64,000 bases of DNA from Shigella phage KRT47, in the sequence record MN781580. One strand, 5' to 3'. Below the pieces are notes generated by a model that did no database searches, was not told the DNA's origin, and saw nothing but the letters and a program-made list of their open reading frames with translations. The translations under genes were made by a program, and so were the position numbers. Shown here piece by piece: positions 19,847-37,008 of this stretch (positions are counted from its first letter, which is position 1; each line of letters starts with the position of its first letter).

Positions 19847-21273
19847 TAAAATTTTAATTCATTTGCCAAAGCATCTAACTGAGCTCGAGTGGATTCATTT
19901 CTTTGATAGCGATTCTGCTCAGCCTGAATCTGTTGTGAACCTGCTACTTCGTTCACTTCAGTTGGAGTAGAATCTTGTTCAATTTCTACCCATTTCTGAT
20001 TTCCCTTTTGAACACCCATCAAAAACTTATTCCACTTATTCTTATCGCCATATCGTGATTTGATTTGCTTAATGAGTTGTTGTTCAGCAGCTGCTAGCTC
20101 CTCGGTTTCAATGACCGCAAGCATAAAATCAGCTGTTGCTGGAAGACCAGCAGATTCTGCAATATCGCTCATGTTAACATCGGAAGAGTCCCAAGCTTGT
20201 TTACCGACCTGTGCTGCAGTCCAAAGAACAGTTTCGGTTTCAACAGCCAGAGCACGCAATTCCTCTGCAATAGCTTTAACAGTTGTGTAACTATTTTCTG
20301 AATAAACTCTGATGCGGCAAGATTTACAAATACCTAGATAGTCGACAATAATGATTGTTGGAACAAAATTCTTCTTGAGCTTCAATTCATTCAAGAGAGA
20401 CCTGAATGTGTTAGCGTCTGCTCCACCAGTAGGATACTGTTTAACGATTAAACGACCAAGGGTAGATTTCTCACGCCATTTTTCCATTTTTCCTTTATAT
20501 TCAGCGTAAGAAATATGCCCATCATCAATGTCATCAAGAGAAACATCAAGCATGTTAGCGTCAATACGCTTAGCACAGACTTCTTCTGCCATTTCCATGG
20601 AAATGTAAAGAACATTATGTCCGAGCTGTAAATAATCTGCTGCTAATGAACACAGACCTAATGATTTACCAACGTTAACGCCAGCCATTAAAACGTTCAG
20701 TGTTCCAGTCTCAGCTCCGCCTTTAGTAATTTTGTTTAGAATTCTGAGTTTAAATGGAACTTTACGAGCTTTATTCATATAAGATAGCCAACGTGCTTCA
20801 TAGTCATCCATCCAATCATGACCAACGTAACTATCAAATGAAATAGATAATGCTTGCCGCATGATGTCAGGAATAGCACCAACATCCGGCATTTTCTTAT
20901 TTCGTTTTTCCGGAGGAAGCTCAGCATTAGTTTGAATTTCGATTATTTTAGACGTAGCATTAAACATCGCCCTTTGCTGAACATATTTTTCTGTTTCTTT
21001 TACTAACCAGCTGTGGTCTTCTGGAGAATCAGCCAGTTTTGAAATAAGTGTTTTTACACCAGAATATTCTGTTTCAGTAAATGAACTATTTTCTAATGCA
21101 ACATTTAACGCATTAATAGATGGAACGCTATGATACTCATTGACATGAGATTTAATTAATTTGAATGTATTTTTAGCTGGACCACTTTCAAAATATTCTG
21201 AATCCATATATGGCCAAACTTTTGAAAAATAAGCTTGATCAAATATAAGATGAGAAAGAATAATTTCTACCAC
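19846..21273 (-). CDS. 41: Replicative DNA helicase (DnaB-like), 475 aa, GTG start
   Basis: Walker A GVNVGKS and RecA-like core; AAGGAG SD 4 nt before GTG at 21271-21273. Confidence 0.9.
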   Translation of the reverse strand: MVEIILSHLIFDQAYFSKVWPYMDSEYFESGPAKNTFKLIKSHVNEYHSVPSINALNVALENSSFTETEYSGVKTLISKLADSPEDHSWLVKETEKYVQQRAMFNATSKIIEIQTNAELPPEKRNKKMPDVGAIPDIMRQALSISFDSYVGHDWMDDYEARWLSYMNKARKVPFKLRILNKITKGGAETGTLNVLMAGVNVGKSLGLCSLAADYLQLGHNVLYISMEMAEEVCAKRIDANMLDVSLDDIDDGHISYAEYKGKMEKWREKSTLGRLIVKQYPTGGADANTFRSLLNELKLKKNFVPTIIIVDYLGICKSCRIRVYSENSYTTVKAIAEELRALAVETETVLWTAAQVGKQAWDSSDVNMSDIAESAGLPATADFMLAVIETEELAAAEQQLIKQIKSRYGDKNKWNKFLMGVQKGNQKWVEIEQDSTPTEVNEVAGSQQIQAEQNRYQRNESTRAQLDALANELKF

Positions 21274-21282
21274 ACTTACTCC

Positions 21283-21627
21283 TTAAAAGAATTTAAACTT
21301 TTTCTTTGACCTTTTATTAAATGCATCTTGTAGTTGCATTGTAATACATTTTTCTACATGAGGAGCTAACTCAGCTTTTCTTTCTTGGTCAAGAACAGCA
21401 AAGTCCATTACAACCTTTCCATCAACCCAATCCAGTTTAGTTACATACACTATATGTGTAGAACCATCTTCTAGTTTAATGACAATCTCCTGGATAACAT
21501 TTTCCATGGCAGATTTAATTATCTTAAGAGACTCGTTAAAAAGACGTTCTTTTCTTTCTTCTTCCCCCTCCGAAGAGGGGGATTCATCGATAATTTCTAG
21601 ATCTAAATCTAAATCATCTTTATTCAT
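21283..21627 (-). CDS. 40: Hypothetical protein, about 114 aa (gene 40 position)
   Basis: ATG at 21625-21627 overlapping the uvsX stop; identity by synteny only. Confidence 0.5.
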   Translation of the reverse strand: MNKDDLDLDLEIIDESPSSEGEEERKERLFNESLKIIKSAMENVIQEIVIKLEDGSTHIVYVTKLDWVDGKVVMDFAVLDQERKAELAPHVEKCITMQLQDAFNKRSKKKFKFF

Positions 21628-22801
21628 TAAATTCTTCCATATCACTTAACTGTTCGAGGTCAGTTTCTAAATCAGCTGCTGATTTACTTTTACTTTCTGG
21701 AGATTTAAATTTTTCAACCTTTGAGTTAATCAATTCATCAACTTCAGCTTCAACAATTTCATTACTATCAATAGCACCTAACTGATAAGCACGTTTAATA
21801 GCATCTCGGAATGGTTGATGCTTAAATAAAGGACCCCAGAATGTAGTGCAGTTGGTATCTTTTGCACGCCAAGATTTTTCTTCGCGAATCATCTCGCCGG
21901 TTTCTTCGTCAAGAAATTCACGAGCATACCAGCCATTTTTAGGTTTTACTACAAATCCTAATTCTAGAGCCATATCTAACAATCCAGAATAAGGATCGAT
22001 ACCACCGTCAAATTTAACATCAATAAAGAATTTACTTTTTTCTTTAACGGTACGAGATTTTTCTACATTTAGAACAAATTGATACCCCTGAAGATCAGAA
22101 CCATCTTTAATCTGGCGTTTACCGATAATGAATACAGTATCAGCCGAATACATTACGCCTGTACCACCTGTCATCACGGTTTTACTAAACATTTCAATTG
22201 TTTCAATTGTATGGTTAACCGCAACACATGGAATATTTTTAATGCTAAAATAAGGAGTAACAATACGGAATAATGACTTCAGTGATTTAGCACGAGTCAT
22301 ATCTGCCACAGATTTTTCATTCAAGGCATCTTCCGTTTCTTTCTTAGAAGCCATATTACCGATTGAGTCGATGAATACAATAACCTTTTCACCACGCTCA
22401 ATAGCTTCAAGCTGATTCACCATATCAATTTTCAGCTGTTCAACTGACTGGATTGGCGTATGAATTACTCGTTCCGGGTCAACTCCCATGGATCGCAAAT
22501 AAGCTGGAGTAATACCAAATTCGCTATCATAGAATAGACAAACCGCGTCAGGATATTTGTTCAAATACGCCGCAACCATAGTCAAAGACATATTTGATTT
22601 AAAGTGTTTAGAAGGACCTGCAAAAATAGTTAAACCAGACTGCATGCCGCCATCAATCGCACCAGAAATAGCAATATTAAGCATTGGAATTTTTGTACGA
22701 ATTACATCCTTTTCATTAAAGAATTTAGATGTAGTCAGTTCAGCAGTCATTTTAGAAGTGGAAGCTTTAATCAAACGGGATTTTAAATCTGCAATAGACA
22801 T
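21620..22801 (-). CDS. uvsX: UvsX recombinase (RecA-like), 393 aa
   Basis: N-terminus close to T4 UvsX as recalled; Walker A GPSKHFKS. Confidence 0.9.
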   Translation of the reverse strand: MSIADLKSRLIKASTSKMTAELTTSKFFNEKDVIRTKIPMLNIAISGAIDGGMQSGLTIFAGPSKHFKSNMSLTMVAAYLNKYPDAVCLFYDSEFGITPAYLRSMGVDPERVIHTPIQSVEQLKIDMVNQLEAIERGEKVIVFIDSIGNMASKKETEDALNEKSVADMTRAKSLKSLFRIVTPYFSIKNIPCVAVNHTIETIEMFSKTVMTGGTGVMYSADTVFIIGKRQIKDGSDLQGYQFVLNVEKSRTVKEKSKFFIDVKFDGGIDPYSGLLDMALELGFVVKPKNGWYAREFLDEETGEMIREEKSWRAKDTNCTTFWGPLFKHQPFRDAIKRAYQLGAIDSNEIVEAEVDELINSKVEKFKSPESKSKSAADLETDLEQLSDMEEFNE

Positions 22802-22878
22802 TCATTTTTTCCATAGGCATCATTATATTTTCCTCACTGGTTAAAGATAGAGTAATTATAACACAATAAATTTAGGCA

Positions 22879-23721
22879 TTAATCAACTGCTATTGGATGA
22901 ATAGCATTAAACTTATGAAATGCTTCTGATTTTTCTTTACGCGAAACACACATGCGAAGAACCTTTAGTGGTTCATCTTCTTCACCCAACGATTTTCGTT
23001 TTTCAATATTAGAAGTTTTCCAACGAGCTTGCTCTGGAAACTCTCTATTGATTTGCTCAAGCGCTCTATTATGTTTAGAATTACTGCGAATTGAACTGCA
23101 CCCGCCAGGAGCTTGTGCTTTTCCAGATACAACCAGATATTTGAACAAGGCCAAATGCGGATAACCTTGATTAATTAAATTGAGAAATGCATACATATCT
23201 TCGCATAAATCAATTTTTCCATACCCAATTTGTTCTGTCGTAAGTTTTCCAAGGTCATACCATGTATTCGTGAATCCATATGAATTTTCACGATAATTAC
23301 CCCAAGATGAAGTAATTTTAAAAATAGGTAGACGAGCATGGCCATGATAATACCCACAATCCATGGCATCCTCAACATATTGAATCAATTCATAGAACTG
23401 TTCACGAGTCAATTGATTGACTTTATCCACACAACGACGATCATCTCTTTTTCGCATTGAACTCATACGAATAGTAGTATCATCGTCAATCATCCAGATT
23501 CGTTGACCTGCATACATATCAGTAATTGCTTTACGAGTACCAGCAATTCCATTTACATCATCAGGAATAGTTATAATTTTAGCTCTAGACCCATAGGCAT
23601 CATAATAAGCTTTTTCTTCATGTTCACGCACTACAATATGGGGTTCATAATCAGTCGGAAACATATCAAGGGCAGAAACTGCCCCGACACGCTGATAACT
23701 TGGAATTACGAATTGAATCAT
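22879..23721 (-). CDS. GT-A glycosyltransferase, 280 aa; likely HMC-glucose glucosyltransferase of the T2/T6 beta-alpha type
   Basis: DxD-type motif IDDDTTI; occupies the locus where T4 has the 351-aa beta-gt; ATGA overlap with gene 42. Confidence 0.55.
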   Translation of the reverse strand: MIQFVIPSYQRVGAVSALDMFPTDYEPHIVVREHEEKAYYDAYGSRAKIITIPDDVNGIAGTRKAITDMYAGQRIWMIDDDTTIRMSSMRKRDDRRCVDKVNQLTREQFYELIQYVEDAMDCGYYHGHARLPIFKITSSWGNYRENSYGFTNTWYDLGKLTTEQIGYGKIDLCEDMYAFLNLINQGYPHLALFKYLVVSGKAQAPGGCSSIRSNSKHNRALEQINREFPEQARWKTSNIEKRKSLGEEDEPLKVLRMCVSRKEKSEAFHKFNAIHPIAVD

Positions 23722-24458
23722 TTCCACTCACCTTTATAGTCTTTTTTCACAATATGAGTTTCGCCAGTATTCCACCAATGATCAACCAAGTAAAAATGAC
23801 GAGAATATACATGAAGACTTCCAACATTCCATATAATAGAACCTGCTTTATACTGACGAGTTGAATCGCCTGCATTCAAATCAGATACTAATTTATCTAA
23901 TACGTATTTTTGCCATGCATAATCATTACGGAATCCGAAGACCACGTCATTTGAGCGCATGCTTACTACTGCATTGACTTTCTTATCACGAATCAGGTAC
24001 TGTACTGTATTAGTACACATGAAATCTGACATACCATCTTTATTGTAGTCAAATTGCATGGATGGACGAGTATAAATCATGATACCACGTCGAGAATCAG
24101 GATTTTGACCAAGTTCAGCTAAACACATATCATACTGGGCATAGTTATCTTCTGACCAAATAGCCCAACCATAATTCGAGTTAATTTCGCCTTTAGAAGA
24201 TGCTACCTGCTGCCAAATCTTTGGTGTTTCGCCTGGAATATCTTTAACAAACAAGCTCTTAGATTTATACCATTCAAGTTCACGCTGAATGTATTCATCA
24301 TTAAGAGCGCCAAAAATAAAGGGTTCATCTGCTACAAATGATGCGCCAATAATTTCAATAGTTTTAACGCCAGTTTTATCAACTACGAAATCTTTTTCCT
24401 TTAATGCAGTTCCCAAATAAAAACGGATTTCTTCAACTGTCATAGAGTCATTAATCAT
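23718..24458 (-). CDS. 42: dCMP hydroxymethylase, 246 aa
   Basis: Length and sequence consistent with T4 gp42; ATG at 24456-24458 with GAGGT SD. Confidence 0.85.
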   Translation of the reverse strand: MINDSMTVEEIRFYLGTALKEKDFVVDKTGVKTIEIIGASFVADEPFIFGALNDEYIQRELEWYKSKSLFVKDIPGETPKIWQQVASSKGEINSNYGWAIWSEDNYAQYDMCLAELGQNPDSRRGIMIYTRPSMQFDYNKDGMSDFMCTNTVQYLIRDKKVNAVVSMRSNDVVFGFRNDYAWQKYVLDKLVSDLNAGDSTRQYKAGSIIWNVGSLHVYSRHFYLVDHWWNTGETHIVKKDYKGEWK

Positions 24459-24465
24459 TTAAACC

Positions 24466-24615
24466 TCAATTGATACATTCATATTTAACTTGTAACAGTA
24501 ATAAACCCCAACCTAAAATAATAGTCGGAATCATAAGAGGAACCGTTACACTATAGTATATACTTATTATAATCATCAAGATTAAAAGCAACACTTCTAT
24601 AATTTTGCTTTTCAT
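24466..24615 (-). CDS. Small membrane peptide, 49 aa (not in ORF track)
   Basis: Hand-translated MKSKIIEVLLLILMIIISIYY...; ATGA overlap with imm stop. Confidence 0.4.
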   Translation of the reverse strand: MKSKIIEVLLLILMIIISIYYSVTVPLMIPTIILGWGLLLLQVKYECIN

Positions 24616-24863
24616 TCCTTCTCTCTGATGATAATTACTTGATTTGGCTGTGCAGACTTTTTAGTTTCACCCGCAATTGACCAAATAAATGTAATAAACC
24701 AACCAATAATTGACCAGTTAAACAGCAAAGACGTGAAAAAGATTCCTACTGTCGATTTTGACCCACGCATCAAGGCGATAAACCATGGAAGCATGTATAT
24801 AATAATAGCCAACACACCTGAAACTAAAACCATAAAAATTGAACCTGCTACTAAAGTTTCCAT
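24612..24863 (-). CDS. imm: Immunity (superinfection exclusion) membrane protein, 83 aa
   Basis: Two hydrophobic helices; 83 aa at the T4 imm position. Confidence 0.65.
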   Translation of the reverse strand: METLVAGSIFMVLVSGVLAIIIYMLPWFIALMRGSKSTVGIFFTSLLFNWSIIGWFITFIWSIAGETKKSAQPNQVIIIREKE

Positions 24864-24870
24864 GTTTTCC

Positions 24871-25251
24871 TCACTTAGTCAAATTTTTTACGCATGAATT
24901 ATAAGAATTCACTACATACTCCATCGGAGCATTTTTACCGGTACGCCATTGGTAATTATTAGCCCAATTTGCCCAAAGCTCGGCGCAGTAGTTTTCAATT
25001 TTTTCTTCGCGTGTAATTACATCCGAATTACGATATGCTTGAGCAGATTCATCTGGACGAATAGCTTCGTCAAAATTTGCCTGCATTTGTTCTACTGTTT
25101 TCTTTGGAGCTTCTTTATAACACTTGACATTAGGATTATAAAACTTGCTTGAACAGTTTACAATTTTTCCTACATCAGACTGATTTACTACCGGTCCTTG
25201 AGCCACACAACCAGTAAGACCTAATGCAATAACCAAAATAGCGATTTTCAT
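24871..25251 (-). CDS. Putative lipoprotein, 126 aa
   Basis: Signal peptide with lipobox LTGC. Confidence 0.55.
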   Translation of the reverse strand: MKIAILVIALGLTGCVAQGPVVNQSDVGKIVNCSSKFYNPNVKCYKEAPKKTVEQMQANFDEAIRPDESAQAYRNSDVITREEKIENYCAELWANWANNYQWRTGKNAPMEYVVNSYNSCVKNLTK

Positions 25252-25261
25252 AATAATTTCC

Positions 25262-25498
25262 TCAAATGCAAGTAGTAATTACTCCAGTAGTGCTTATGCA
25301 GGTATTACCCATTTGCACACCTAAAGATCCATTTGTATTCACATGAAGATTATCATCAATTTTAACTGATATTTTACCATTAGTGTGAATAACGGTGCTA
25401 GATTTAATCACAGGTTGAGTATCATTTTCAACACTAATAAATGGAACTGCTACTAATGCAACTAAACAAACTGCTAAGCATCCCATAACAATTTTCAT
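25262..25498 (-). CDS. Small secreted or membrane protein, 78 aa
   Basis: ATG at 25496-25498 with GGAG SD; N-terminal hydrophobic signal. Confidence 0.5.
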   Translation of the reverse strand: MKIVMGCLAVCLVALVAVPFISVENDTQPVIKSSTVIHTNGKISVKIDDNLHVNTNGSLGVQMGNTCISTTGVITTCI

Positions 25499-25536
25499 TT
25501 TATTCTCCAAATCTGTATCAGTAGTTGATAGTTGTA

Positions 25537-25566
25537 TAGTACCACAGAAGAACAGTCTTGTAAACA
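25537..25566 (-). promoter_or_regulatory. Early promoter (-35 GTTTAC, -10 TACTAT) inside a repeated promoter cassette
   Basis: Minus-strand GTTTAC at 25561-25566, 18-nt spacer. Confidence 0.5.
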
Positions 25567-25652
25567 GTTTTGTGAAAATTTTTTTAGGGAATTCTAAAGG
25601 TCCAGAATCATCTGTTTTTCATAAGTATAGATTTATATTACTTGTATGAAAA

Positions 25653-25670
25653 AGGGACCCGGAGGTCCCT
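25653..25670 (-). terminator. GC stem-loop (UCCG loop) directly after gene 43
   Basis: Plus-strand agggacc-cgga-ggtccct. Confidence 0.5.
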
Positions 25671-25682
25671 AGATTTATTCTA

Positions 25683-28379
25683 TCAGCCAAACAGGAAGTC
25701 TAACGAAGCTTTTTCTTCATAGTCCATACCAGCCGATTCACACATGCCTGCAAGCGGTTTAACAAACGATTTTTGGAACAAAGTTGAGTAGTCAATCCAA
25801 GATAGTACATCAGAACGAATTTCTTTTGGAAGTTCTGTACCCGACGGCCAAGCAATGCACTTGTCGCCAAATGGATTTCCTTCACGTAATGGAAGAACCA
25901 TTACCTTATTTCCATCCAAAATTGGAGCTACACCCAGACCACTAACAGCTCGACGATAAGTTAGCACACCACGAATATGGAACGGGCATTTAAATCCTGG
26001 CCAACCTTTATCATCATATTTCGCTATATCGTTCGCAGTTTTTACTTCAGCAATAACTTTATAGTCAAGTTGACGATATTCTTTCTCGAAGTTCTTGTAA
26101 TATTCTTGGACAGACTCTTCACCTTCCTGAAGAATACGACGAATACTTTCTTCAAGAGCTTCTTGAACTGCTTTAGGCGTTGAACTTTGCTGAGTTTCCA
26201 TACCCATGATTTTTAGATGCGGTTCAGCAAAACGCTTATCTTCCATATCATATACGTTCAGAGCATAACGCTTTTTCGCTTTCCAAAATCCACCAACGCC
26301 CTTTGAACCAAGTGGAGGGCAAGAAATAGCTTCACGGTCCATATGCATCAGATGCTCGCGGTTATTCATATAATCACATAACTCACGATATGCAACATCA
26401 ATCATAGGTTCCATCTTTTTCTTACCGAACTGATTCATGAATTCAACTAAATCGTTCTGCTCTTTGAATCGGTCAAGACCAACTTTTTCAATAACTTTAT
26501 CTACACAAACATATACCGAATCAGTATCACCTGCTGCAATGAAATCTTCGCCATTAGTTCCGCACACTTTATTCAGATACTCATTAATTTTACGAGCAAT
26601 CCACTGAATACCAACTTGGCCGAAAATTGTGATAGCAGTAGCATTTCGCAAATCATAGTAACGGAAATGAATATTACCAAGAGCACCGTAAAGGCTGTTA
26701 ATAAGAATTTTACGGTTCAGCTGATTTGTATTAGCAAGTGTAGCCGCTTTTTCACATTCTTCAATCAAACTATTGAGAACAGATTCAGTATAATTCGATA
26801 GTTCATTTAAGAAATCATCACTGAACTTAACATATCGTTCAACTTCTGGTTTAGTTGAACAGGACCCTGCGCCTTTCATAATAATCTTTTTAATAGCTTC
26901 GGCATTCATTTCTTCAGCGAACATTTTCTTTTTCCAATCTTTACGCTGGAAAAATACTTTAGCGATTTCCTTTGGAATGATACCTTCTTGATGCTTATCA
27001 TACATCCATCCATTCGGAGAACAAGAATATTCATCACTCGGTTTAGGAGCTGTTCCTGCGATATATTCATGAATTGGATGAACTTTAAACTGCCCACGAA
27101 TAGTCTCAGGACTAATGTTAACCTGACGAATAATGCTCGGATACAGAGACGTCAAGTCAAAACTCATAATATATCGACGAGCAATTGGTTTAGGTTCAAA
27201 CACAAATGCACCCGGAAAACTCTGTTTAACGTGCGAACCTTGTTGAGGAATAACCTTGTGTTCACCTTTCAATGAGTTAAAAATAATAGCATCCCAAGTT
27301 TTAATAGGACTCATTACACCAGAAAAAGGCATTTTAGCGTAATAAGACATACTTAAAACTAGATCGATAAACCCGCGAATTTTATCAATTGCTTGAACTG
27401 ATTCTACGTCAATGATGTTATAACTAATGTATCGTTGATGATTAGTCTCACGAAGTTTATTAATAGGACCGTCGTATGGTAATTTACCTTTTTTGGTTTC
27501 ATGTTGAGCAACTGATTCCAAAGAGAATGACGGCAAATTAGTAAATGCGAATTTCTTATACAAATCTAAATAATCAAGAATAGATACGCCATCAATAGAA
27601 TAAATTTCTTTGCTACCGTACATATTTTGGATAAGTTTAGATTTTACTCGACCGATTGGAGAGAAGCGTTTCATACTACGTTCACCGAGAACCATTTTAA
27701 CGCGATTCATGATATACGGAACGTCAAATCCCTCAATATTCCAACCAGTAAAAATAGCAGGTCGTTTCTGTTCCCAGAGATTGATATATTCCATGAGCAT
27801 ATCACGCTCATTATCGAATGGCATATAAATTACTCGGTCAAGAATTTCTTGAGGAACTTCATCACCACCTTCACAGTCAAGCTTAGCAGCTAACTTTGCA
27901 TCCCATTTTGATACTGAACCATACATTGAATTCAAAAGGTCGAAAACATAAAAACGATCATCAATTGAATCGTAATGAGTGATAGCATCAATTTCATATT
28001 CAGCTTTCATTGGGTCAGGAAATTTATCACCAGTAACCTCAATGTCACAGTTAGCTACACGAACAAATTTTCGGTCATAAACAATTTCTGAACCGTATGT
28101 ATCACTGATATAAGCGAGTTTAAAATCGTTCATACCGAGAGCTTCGAGACCGATGTCTTCCATTCGTTTCATCCAATCTCGAGCATCTTTCATTGATGAA
28201 AATTTTTGAGGAGCGCAGTTTTTACCATAGATGTCTTTGTACTTTGACTCTTCCTTACAATGCCTAAACATAGTTGGAAGATATTCTACTTCACGAGTAC
28301 GTTCCTTTCCGTTTTCATCAATATAACGTTCAACAATGTTATTTCCGACTGTTTCAATAGAGATATAAAATTCTTTCAT
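25683..28379 (-). CDS. 43: DNA polymerase (family B) with 3'-5' exonuclease, 898 aa
   Basis: Exo and pol motifs (DTDS); 898 aa as T4 gp43. Confidence 0.95.
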   Translation of the reverse strand: MKEFYISIETVGNNIVERYIDENGKERTREVEYLPTMFRHCKEESKYKDIYGKNCAPQKFSSMKDARDWMKRMEDIGLEALGMNDFKLAYISDTYGSEIVYDRKFVRVANCDIEVTGDKFPDPMKAEYEIDAITHYDSIDDRFYVFDLLNSMYGSVSKWDAKLAAKLDCEGGDEVPQEILDRVIYMPFDNERDMLMEYINLWEQKRPAIFTGWNIEGFDVPYIMNRVKMVLGERSMKRFSPIGRVKSKLIQNMYGSKEIYSIDGVSILDYLDLYKKFAFTNLPSFSLESVAQHETKKGKLPYDGPINKLRETNHQRYISYNIIDVESVQAIDKIRGFIDLVLSMSYYAKMPFSGVMSPIKTWDAIIFNSLKGEHKVIPQQGSHVKQSFPGAFVFEPKPIARRYIMSFDLTSLYPSIIRQVNISPETIRGQFKVHPIHEYIAGTAPKPSDEYSCSPNGWMYDKHQEGIIPKEIAKVFFQRKDWKKKMFAEEMNAEAIKKIIMKGAGSCSTKPEVERYVKFSDDFLNELSNYTESVLNSLIEECEKAATLANTNQLNRKILINSLYGALGNIHFRYYDLRNATAITIFGQVGIQWIARKINEYLNKVCGTNGEDFIAAGDTDSVYVCVDKVIEKVGLDRFKEQNDLVEFMNQFGKKKMEPMIDVAYRELCDYMNNREHLMHMDREAISCPPLGSKGVGGFWKAKKRYALNVYDMEDKRFAEPHLKIMGMETQQSSTPKAVQEALEESIRRILQEGEESVQEYYKNFEKEYRQLDYKVIAEVKTANDIAKYDDKGWPGFKCPFHIRGVLTYRRAVSGLGVAPILDGNKVMVLPLREGNPFGDKCIAWPSGTELPKEIRSDVLSWIDYSTLFQKSFVKPLAGMCESAGMDYEEKASLDFLFG

Positions 28380-35342: not shown

Positions 35343-35360
35343 AAAGGGCCGAAGCCCTTT
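35343..35360 (-). terminator. Stem-loop with UUCG tetraloop at the alpha-gt stop
   Basis: Plus-strand aaagggc-cgaa-gcccttt. Confidence 0.5.
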
Positions 35361-36561
35361 ATTTTGTAATAATGTCAAACTGTTCTTTAAAGCAGAAGCT
35401 TGAATCTTGATGCTGATACAAAAATTCATATGCTTTTTCTCGCTCACGGTCATAAAGAGTTCGGTCAGATGACAGTTCTTTAATACGTTCAAATGTTGAT
35501 TCCATATCATTTTCATCAAACCAAATGATACCGCTATCATGCGAGGTCAAAGGAGTATTATCAACACGGAATTTTAAATTTTCGCCAGTAGATTTCCAAA
35601 ATACCGGAATTGTTCCACATGCACCAAGCTCGAGATGAGTATATTCTAAAGAACGTTGTAGATATTTTTTATCCAACTTACTCAGCTGATAACCAAATCC
35701 GGATTTACTCATGCGTTCAAGCATTTCGCTATTTACATAACGGTCGAGAATTTGCGTTGGCAAATTAGGAGCAATTTTAATTTGGTCTACTTGATGAAGA
35801 CGATAATACTCGTATGGAATTCCTTTTTCTTTAATAGGAATGAACGCTGGAGAACGTTCCAGACCTTCCATAATAGTACTTAGTCCTGCAGGTTTAAGAT
35901 GTTTTTCGTGAAAATCAAACATCTGATAAAAACCTTTCCATGTAGTCGTACGACCAATCCAACGGTTGATATTCATGTTAATTTCAGAAACATCTTTCCA
36001 GTAGGTTGATCGAACCTTCGCAATATCCATAGGAGGCTGAAAGTTATATATGGTCGGTGCTTCTTCAATATCATCAAACAGAGAAACAGTTTCTGGATAC
36101 CACTCTTTCATCAGAACTTTATTAAAATCACCATTATCAGAATGGCTAAAAATAACATCAGCTCGACGAACAGTTTCTTCTAATCCCAAATTTCGACGCA
36201 AAGAAAGAGAAGAATGGTCATGCTGATAAACTACAACACGAACCGAAGGTTTAATGTTATCAATAATTTTTTTATAGTTATTAATAGTGTCTTCTTCAAC
36301 CGAAGTAGCAGGAACTGAATTGATAATTAGAATATCACAATCATTTACCAGCTTAAGTGTTTTATCATATTCTTTTGCCAATAAAACCGGAATTGAAAAT
36401 GATTTATAATCATGCGCGCAATTACGAGTAAATGATTTATCTTTAGCATAAACCAAAGTCACTTCATGACCATTTTTAATAAACCAATCACGTTGCTCGA
36501 GTGAGAATTTTGTTACACCACAACCTTCAAGACCTCGAGCCATAAAAATACATACTTTCAT
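35359..36561 (-). CDS. a-gt: DNA alpha-glucosyltransferase, 400 aa
   Basis: 400 aa; N-terminus MKVCIFMARGLEGCGVTKF... close to T4 alpha-gt as recalled. Confidence 0.85.
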   Translation of the reverse strand: MKVCIFMARGLEGCGVTKFSLEQRDWFIKNGHEVTLVYAKDKSFTRNCAHDYKSFSIPVLLAKEYDKTLKLVNDCDILIINSVPATSVEEDTINNYKKIIDNIKPSVRVVVYQHDHSSLSLRRNLGLEETVRRADVIFSHSDNGDFNKVLMKEWYPETVSLFDDIEEAPTIYNFQPPMDIAKVRSTYWKDVSEINMNINRWIGRTTTWKGFYQMFDFHEKHLKPAGLSTIMEGLERSPAFIPIKEKGIPYEYYRLHQVDQIKIAPNLPTQILDRYVNSEMLERMSKSGFGYQLSKLDKKYLQRSLEYTHLELGACGTIPVFWKSTGENLKFRVDNTPLTSHDSGIIWFDENDMESTFERIKELSSDRTLYDREREKAYEFLYQHQDSSFCFKEQFDIITK

Positions 36562-36612
36562 TTAATATCCTCTTTGTTTTGGTTTATTTTACCAAAAATT
36601 TATAAAGCAATA

Positions 36613-36630
36613 TAGGAGCCGAAGCTCCTA
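36613..36630 (-). terminator. Stem-loop with UUCG tetraloop
   Basis: Plus-strand taggagc-cgaa-gctccta upstream of alpha-gt. Confidence 0.45.
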
Positions 36631-36804
36631 TCCGCATAATACGCCATACAGAGGCTCGTTAGAACTTTTAAATTTTATGCGCTTATATTTTATAGTTCCT
36701 TCTGCTTTAGCTTTATCATGAGACTCTTTAAAGCGTCTCATCATTTCTACTTTAGAGGAACGAATTTTATTATAATCTATTTCAGAAGTCTGGGTGTTCA
36801 TCTT

Positions 36805-37008
36805 TCATAACTGCCACCATTTTTTGACTTGATAAGAATCAACCCACACTTTCATATTAGGGTCTGCTCTTACAATAGGAGGATTAACTTCTTTAATTGA
36901 ACTATCATGGTATTCTTTTTCAGAAATTTTCACACAAAGATGACCATTCAAAGATTCAGTAAATCCTGCATTAATTTTAAGACGCTTGAATTTTACGTGT
37001 GTAAGCAT
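36805..37008 (-). CDS. Small hypothetical protein, 67 aa
   Basis: ATG at 37006-37008. Confidence 0.45.
   Translation of the reverse strand: MLTHVKFKRLKINAGFTESLNGHLCVKISEKEYHDSSIKEVNPPIVRADPNMKVWVDSYQVKKWWQL

What the first reader, a model, noticed from the sequence alone, without database searches (positions are those of the whole stretch)
22879..23721. A 280-aa GT-A glycosyltransferase occupies the locus where T4 has beta-glucosyltransferase
Between gene 42 and uvsX, where T4 encodes the 351-aa beta-gt, this genome has a shorter DxD-motif glycosyltransferase, while alpha-gt (35359-36561) is conserved. That combination predicts a T2/T6-like hydroxymethylcytosine glucosylation pattern (alpha-glucosyl plus a second glucose on glucose), which changes sensitivity to glucosyl-HMC-specific restriction.
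Basis: partly seen in the sequence, partly recalled or inferred. Interest (0 to 1): 0.45.

Follow-up and report, generated by a model that had tools for sequence, protein, structure and literature searches.

The report
Known T2/T6-type second-glucose DNA glucosyltransferase
This gene is the well-known T2/T6-type enzyme that adds a second glucose to already glucosylated phage DNA, and having it in place of T4's beta-glucosyltransferase is the usual state for T4-like coliphages, so the finding is correct but ordinary.

The parts
22879..23721 (-). CDS for the 280-aa beta-glucosyl-HMC-alpha-glucosyltransferase (ba-gt / ggt / TAGT); the stop codon is at 22879-22881
   Evidence: ORF. Pfam PF20691 at 38.9 bits. 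PHROG 842 at E 6e-89. 100% identical to the Solly and FriedrichZschokke proteins. 2 substitutions from T2 and 98.6% identical to T6.
23479..23487 (-). Codons for D79-D80-D81, the DxD (metal / UDP-sugar binding) motif
   Evidence: Sequence. Invariant in all 9 aligned family members. Lies at the C-terminal end of model strand 74-79, the canonical GT-A position.
23197..23202 (-). Codons for E174-D175 ('CED'), the candidate catalytic base of an inverting GT2-like enzyme (inferred)
   Evidence: D175 is invariant in alignment A2. The assignment rests on resemblance to the GT2 'TED/ED' base motif and was not tested.
23687..23700 (-). Codons for P7-S8-Y9-Q10-R11 after strand beta1, the presumed nucleotide-binding loop; the R11 codon (23689-23691) is CGT here and CAT (His) in T2
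   Evidence: P7, S8, Y9 and R11 are invariant. T2 has R11H in two independent records.
22790..23735 (.). 946-bp cassette with no DNA homology to T4; it replaces T4's 1941-bp segA plus b-gt segment (T4 23556-25496)
   Evidence: blastn of window 21000-26000 against the T4 locus. Homology ends at 22789, inside the 5' end of uvsX, and resumes at 23736, inside the 3' end of gene 42.
23718..24458 (-). Gene 42, dCMP hydroxymethylase; it makes the hmC precursor and is translationally coupled to ba-gt through the ATGA overlap
   Evidence: Annotated as such in RB18 and T2.
35359..36561 (-). alpha-glucosyltransferase (a-gt); it makes alpha-glucosyl-hmC, the acceptor for ba-gt
   Evidence: Pfam AGT at 785 bits. 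91% identical to T4 a-gt. About 100% identical to T2 and Solly a-gt.
21620..22801 (-). uvsX recombinase, the downstream flank of the locus
   Evidence: Pfam T4_UVSX_C plus RecA.

Best explanation
The ORF encodes the T2/T6-type beta-glucosyl-HMC-alpha-glucosyltransferase, also called ba-gt, ggt or TAGT (Pfam PF20691). It is a GT-A-fold, GT2-like enzyme with a DxD motif and is presumably inverting. The pathway runs as follows. Gp42 supplies hmdCMP, and replication puts hmC into the DNA. Alpha-gt then alpha-glucosylates about 2/3 to 3/4 of the hmC residues. This enzyme uses UDP-glucose to add a second glucose in beta-1,6 linkage to the alpha-glucose, giving alpha-gentiobiosyl-hmC. No beta-gt is present, so hmC residues that alpha-gt cannot reach stay bare. 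The predicted virion DNA is T6/Solly-like: mostly gentiobiosyl-hmC, about 25-33% hmC, little alpha-glucosyl-hmC and no beta-glucosyl-hmC. Shown here: gene identity, synteny, fold, motifs, an intact alpha-gt and the absence of beta-gt in the window. Taken from the literature: the chemistry, and the measured pattern in a phage with the identical enzyme. Inferred: the inverting mechanism, D175 as the catalytic base, and the product ratio in this particular phage.
Against: Nothing measured here contradicts it. Remaining uncertainties are as follows. No enzyme assay or DNA analysis exists for this exact phage. The AF2 model has moderate confidence with disordered loops (131-150, 203-211). There is no solved structure of any close relative. 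T2 has a nearly identical enzyme and alpha-gt but makes only about 5% gentiobiosyl-hmC, so the product ratio is not fixed by gene presence alone. Only 64 kb of the genome was visible, so a beta-gt elsewhere cannot be formally excluded, although none is known outside this locus in Tequatrovirus.
Confidence: 0.93

Rival explanations
1. The enzyme is present but works poorly, as in T2. The DNA would then be mostly alpha-glucosyl-hmC with only a few percent gentiobiosyl-hmC.
For: T2 makes 70% alpha-glucosyl-hmC and 5% gentiobiosyl-hmC. Its enzyme differs from the window's at only 2 residues, and its alpha-gt is about 100% identical. The Durham phages EL, BGP and Geo show an intermediate 1:2:2 ratio.
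Against: The window protein is 100% identical to Solly's, and Solly is about 2/3 gentiobiosyl. The window keeps R11, which is invariant across the family. Both T2 records have H11. The window lacks EL's 7 substitutions.
Confidence: 0.12
2. The enzyme is a functional substitute for beta-gt and glucosylates bare hmC directly, or it transfers a sugar other than glucose.
For: It occupies the beta-gt locus. More distant TAGT homologues occur alone or with beta-gt homologues in other genera, so acceptor specificity varies within the family (PMC13216743; PMC6024577).
Against: Phages with the identical or near-identical enzyme contain no beta-glucosyl-hmC and keep about 1/3 bare hmC. T6 lacking ba-gt loses only the second glucose.
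Confidence: 0.03
3. The gene is inactive, a decaying remnant.
For: Two T6 laboratory records carry lesions in this gene: an amber codon at Q10 in MH550421 and a 3-nt deletion in the DDD motif in NC_054907. Loss is therefore tolerated in the laboratory.
Against: The window ORF is full length with every invariant family residue intact and is identical to the protein of phages with measured gentiobiosylation.
Confidence: 0.02

Closest known systems
T6 / T2 beta-glucosyl-HMC-alpha-glucosyltransferase (ba-gt, ggt; YP_010067197.1 in T6)
   Same: Same length, same locus between gene 42 and uvsX, same ATGA coupling to gene 42. 98.6% identical to the T6 enzyme and 2 substitutions from the T2 enzyme (99.3%). 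Same partner enzyme, alpha-gt.
   Different: Only point differences. The window has R11 and P251 where T2 has H11 and S251. It has Y40, D55, D79 and R106 where the T6 RefSeq record has N, G, a deletion and H.
Escherichia phage vB_Eco_Solly glucosyl transferase (SOLLY_044) and BASEL FriedrichZschokke beta-alpha-glucosyltransferase
   Same: 100% identical protein. The neighbourhood is collinear at about 98% nucleotide identity. Alpha-gt is about 100% identical. Solly DNA has been analysed by HPLC/MS.
   Different: These are different phage isolates. No record in the collection matches the 24-kb stretch tested (15000-39000) above about 98%.
T4 beta-glucosyltransferase (b-gt, GT-B fold, PDB 1JG7)
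   Same: Same genomic slot, same donor (UDP-glucose), and both form a beta linkage on phage hmC DNA.
   Different: No sequence similarity. Different fold: GT-A here against GT-B (PMC13216743). Different acceptor: the glucose of alpha-glucosyl-hmC against the hydroxymethyl group of hmC. T4 also carries the homing endonuclease segA at the locus.
Pfam PF20691 TAGT (TET-associated glycosyltransferase) and GT2-family GT-A enzymes (e.g. TarP 6H1J, BcsA)
   Different: Sequence identity to solved GT2 enzymes is only 6-15%. The acceptor is a sugar on DNA, not a glycan or teichoic acid.

Membership tests
T2/T6 beta-glucosyl-HMC-alpha-glucosyltransferase (ba-gt/ggt) orthologue group | Full-length high sequence identity to the T2 and T6 enzymes | tested here: met
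   2 substitutions in 280 aa against T2. 98.6% identity over 100% of the length against T6. PHROG 842 at E 6e-89.
T2/T6 beta-glucosyl-HMC-alpha-glucosyltransferase (ba-gt/ggt) orthologue group | Located between gene 42 and uvsX, replacing T4 b-gt | tested here: met
   Breakpoints against T4 lie at 22789/22790 and 23735/23736.
T2/T6 beta-glucosyl-HMC-alpha-glucosyltransferase (ba-gt/ggt) orthologue group | Co-occurs with a functional alpha-gt that supplies the alpha-glucosyl-hmC acceptor | tested here: met
   Intact 400-aa alpha-gt, Pfam AGT at 785 bits, 91% identical to T4 and about 100% to T2 and Solly.
T2/T6 beta-glucosyl-HMC-alpha-glucosyltransferase (ba-gt/ggt) orthologue group | Transfers glucose from UDP-glucose in beta-1,6 linkage onto alpha-glucosyl-hmC in DNA | not testable with these tools
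   Literature only. T6 lacking ba-gt loses gentiobiosyl-hmC (PMC11078745). Solly, which has the identical protein, has about 2/3 gentiobiosyl-hmC (PMC13390438).
Pfam PF20691 TAGT | Score above the Pfam gathering threshold over the whole domain | tested here: met
   38.9 bits against a cut-off of 27.5. Residues 3-207 match profile positions 2-205 of 205.
GT-A fold glycosyltransferases (GT2-like) | Single Rossmann-like nucleotide-diphospho-sugar transferase fold | tested here: met
GT-A fold glycosyltransferases (GT2-like) | DxD motif at the end of the fourth beta-strand | tested here: met
   D79-D80-D81 is invariant and follows model strand 74-79.
T4 beta-glucosyltransferase family (GT-B; Pfam PF09198) | Sequence or profile similarity to T4 b-gt | tested here: not met
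   BLASTP best E 2.2 over 8 residues. No PF09198 hit in the Pfam scan. tblastn of T4 b-gt against the whole window gives E > 1.

The most novel reading that the evidence does not exclude
In this phage's background the enzyme might give a modification pattern not yet described for T2, T6 or the Durham phages. Examples would be further chain extension beyond gentiobiose, or use of another acceptor, giving a new defence-evasion profile. Nothing in the sequence points to this. It is simply not excluded without DNA chemistry on this isolate.
Probability: 0.02. Interest if true: 0.4.

Novelty: already known. Interest (0 to 1): 0.07.

Why it matters
The finding is useful only as correct annotation. 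It tells a user of this phage, for example in therapy or in defence-system screens, what its DNA should look like. The DNA should carry gentiobiosyl-hmC plus a fraction of bare hmC. Published work on T2, T6 and the BASEL and Durham phages then predicts the following. The phage should be sensitive to GmrSD/BrxU-type enzymes and to the hmC glycosylase Brig3. It should be at least partly sensitive to Brig1 in vivo. Its virion DNA should resist Brig1 in vitro. It opens no new question, because the gene, its locus, its fold and its product are all published.

Tried and rejected
A sequence search of the PDB gave only chance hits (E 1.6-2), so no solved relative is detectable by sequence. BLASTP against T4 b-gt found nothing, which rejects the reading that this is a short or diverged b-gt. 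The sigma-70 promoter and terminator scan of 22600-24900 found no more sites than shuffles give (14 against 10.7 +/- 3.2), so no dedicated promoter or terminator is claimed. I read a TGTTATAAT extended -10-like sequence in the ba-gt/uvsX spacer by eye and did not test it. The GTG at 23727 was considered as a start and rejected in favour of the ATG at 23721, because of the ATGA coupling and because all annotated homologues use the ATG. The literature search for 'beta-alpha-glucosyltransferase' gave 0 papers, and one search failed on a term that was too short. The original T2/T6 cloning paper (Winkler and Rueger, Nucleic Acids Res 1993; cited from my own memory) could not be retrieved. No tRNA genes were found in the window. 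The protein-database search gave only 11 relatives, so the alignment behind the structure model is shallow.

Full report
**1. Observation**

The window starts at a 725-aa ORF in the position of rIIA and runs collinear with T4-type genomes. No record in the phage collection exceeds about 98% identity over the 24-kb stretch tested (15000-39000), so the window is from a Tequatrovirus that is not itself in the collection.

On the minus strand there is an ORF ending at 22879. From the ATG at 23721 it encodes 280 aa. A GTG six bases upstream would add two residues, but all annotated homologues are 843-nt CDSs that start at the ATG. The ATG overlaps the gene 42 stop codon as ATGA, and GGTGAG lies upstream of the ATG. 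This arrangement suggests translational coupling.

The upstream gene, 23718-24458, hits Pfam Thymidylat_synt and is gene 42, the dCMP hydroxymethylase. The downstream gene, 21620-22801, is uvsX (Pfam T4_UVSX_C plus RecA). In T4 the same interval holds segA and the 351-aa b-gt.

**2. What it is**

- **Family matches.** The protein matches Pfam PF20691 (TAGT, TET-associated glycosyltransferase) end to end at 38.9 bits, above the 27.5-bit cut-off. It matches PHROG 842, 'beta-glucosyl-HMC-alpha-glucosyltransferase', at E 6e-89.
- **Distribution.** Megablast finds the gene in 474 phage records at 90% or more nucleotide identity, mostly from Escherichia, Shigella and Yersinia phages. Many are annotated beta-glucosyl-HMC-alpha-glucosyltransferase, ggt or beta-alpha-glucosyltransferase.
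- **Identity to characterised enzymes.** At the protein level it is 100% identical to the product in vB_Eco_Solly, BASEL FriedrichZschokke and others, and 98.6% identical to T6. It differs from T2 at two residues, R11H and P251S.
- **No relation to T4 b-gt.** BLASTP against T4 b-gt gives nothing (best E 2.2 over 8 residues). tblastn of T4 b-gt against the whole window also gives nothing.
- **Clean cassette exchange.** DNA homology to T4 stops at window 22789, inside the 5' end of uvsX, and resumes at 23736, inside the 3' end of gene 42. The 946-bp window segment stands in for T4's 1941-bp segA plus b-gt segment.

**3. Fold and motifs**

No solved structure is detectable by sequence. I collected 11 homologues and aligned 8 of them, at 32-77% identity, with the window protein. 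I used that alignment for an AF2 model, which has mean pLDDT 72.5 and pTM 0.73, with loops 131-150 and 203-211 unreliable.

D79-D80-D81 is invariant in the family and sits directly after model strand 74-79, the canonical GT-A DxD position. P7, S8, Y9 and R11 after strand beta1 are also invariant, as is D175 in 'CED'. By analogy with GT2 enzymes I infer a nucleotide-binding loop and a catalytic base respectively, but I did not test this.

A GT2-like inverting mechanism fits the formation of a beta linkage from UDP-alpha-glucose. This is also inference. A 2026 paper independently placed an AF3 model of T6 TAGT in the GT-A superfamily as a sister to GT2 (PMC13216743).

**4. Partner enzyme**

The ORF at 35359-36561 is an intact 400-aa alpha-glucosyltransferase with Pfam AGT at 785 bits. 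It is 91% identical to T4 a-gt and about 100% identical to the T2 and Solly enzymes.

**5. How it works (literature)**

In T2 and T6, alpha-gt glucosylates about 75% of hmC. [quoted passage not shown] This accounts for 5% of hmC in T2 and 72% in T6, and about 25% stays bare (PMC6024577; PMC11078745; PMC13216743). Deleting ba-gt in T6 leaves only alpha-glucosyl-hmC.

HPLC/MS of Durham-collection Tequatroviruses shows that Solly, whose enzyme is identical to the window's, has about 1/3 5-hmdC, about 2/3 alpha-gentiobiosyl-mdC, only a background of alpha-glucosyl-mdC and no beta-glucosyl form. The authors attribute this to alpha-gt plus TAGT and note that TAGT is syntenic with T4 b-gt (PMC13390438).

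My best prediction for this phage is therefore a T6/Solly-like pattern. The T2-like low-conversion outcome is less likely. The window keeps the family-invariant R11, whereas both T2 genome records have His.

**6. Consequences for defence**

All of the following are published.
- Brig1 excises alpha-glucosyl-hmC. Gentiobiosyl T6 DNA resists it in vitro, and T6 lacking ba-gt is more sensitive, yet T6 is still restricted in vivo.
- GmrSD cuts alpha-glucosyl, beta-glucosyl and gentiobiosyl forms.
- Brig3 excises bare hmC and restricts T2, T6, T4 lacking b-gt and BASEL phages Bas35-45, because about 25% of hmC stays unmodified when b-gt is absent (bioRxiv 10.64898/2026.02.25.707755).

**7. How ordinary it is**

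In the phage collection, 474 records carry this gene at 90% or more nucleotide identity. Only 29 carry T4-type b-gt, and most of those are T4 itself and its laboratory derivatives. [quoted passage not shown] The window shows the default Tequatrovirus state, and T4 is the outlier.

**8. Verdict**

The gene, its locus, its fold, its product and its defence consequences are all in the literature, and an identical protein exists in characterised phages. Novelty is 'already known' and interest is low. The only loose ends lie outside the window: the T2 R11H substitution and the lesions in two T6 records, both listed under things noticed in passing.

Noticed in passing
L003:4286-5125 (T2 AP018813) and L007:2289-3128 (T2 MH751506), compared with window 23689-23691: Both independent T2 genome records have His at residue 11 of ba-gt, where the window has Arg. 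Solly, RB18, EL, T6 and every family member down to 32% identity also have Arg ('PSYQR' after strand beta1). This substitution at an invariant, probably nucleotide-binding position might explain why T2 makes only about 5% gentiobiosyl-hmC against 72% in T6.
   Followed up: partly
L008:2138-2985 (T6 MH550421) and L002:3001-3840 (T6 NC_054907): The two T6 records carry different lesions in ba-gt. MH550421 has TAG in place of CAG at codon 10 and is annotated from a downstream ATG as a 261-aa product. NC_054907 lacks one Asp codon of the DDD motif. These could be laboratory-stock mutations or sequencing errors, and they matter to anyone using these records as the reference T6 enzyme.
   Followed up: partly
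window 22790-23735 and 36562-36976: The window has no homologue of the T4 homing endonucleases segA (next to b-gt in T4) or mobB (next to a-gt in T4); tblastn gives E > 1.
   Followed up: partly
window 25262-25510 (-): An 82-aa ORF with a hydrophobic N-terminal segment lies between imm.1 and gene 43. It sits in a 233-bp stretch (25252-25484) with no DNA homology to T4 or T6. T2 has a different small ORF there. Solly and RB18 (RB18ORF048) are collinear with the window. Its function is unknown.
   Followed up: no
window 24466-24615 (-): A 49-aa, very hydrophobic ORF lies between gene 42 and imm and overlaps the imm stop codon. Solly annotates it (SOLLY_046), but T4, T2, T6 and RB18 do not, even though the DNA is homologous.
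   Followed up: no
window 23718-24458 (-), and RefSeq records: RefSeq re-annotation names gp42 'thymidylate synthase'. It is the dCMP hydroxymethylase, a paralogue of thymidylate synthase. Some records also label T4-type b-gt as 'beta-glucosyl-HMC-alpha-glucosyl-transferase' (RB55 and RB59), and label the TAGT gene as 'beta-glucosyltransferase' (SH7). The names at this locus are unreliable.
   Followed up: no
homologues in other genera (CC31, Klebsiella, Salmonella and Proteus phages at 64-66% identity; Serratia SP1 at 48%): TAGT homologues sit next to gene 42 in other Tevenvirinae genera. According to PMC6024577 and PMC13216743, some of them pair with beta-gt homologues or occur alone, so their acceptor specificity is likely different and is uncharacterised.
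   Followed up: no
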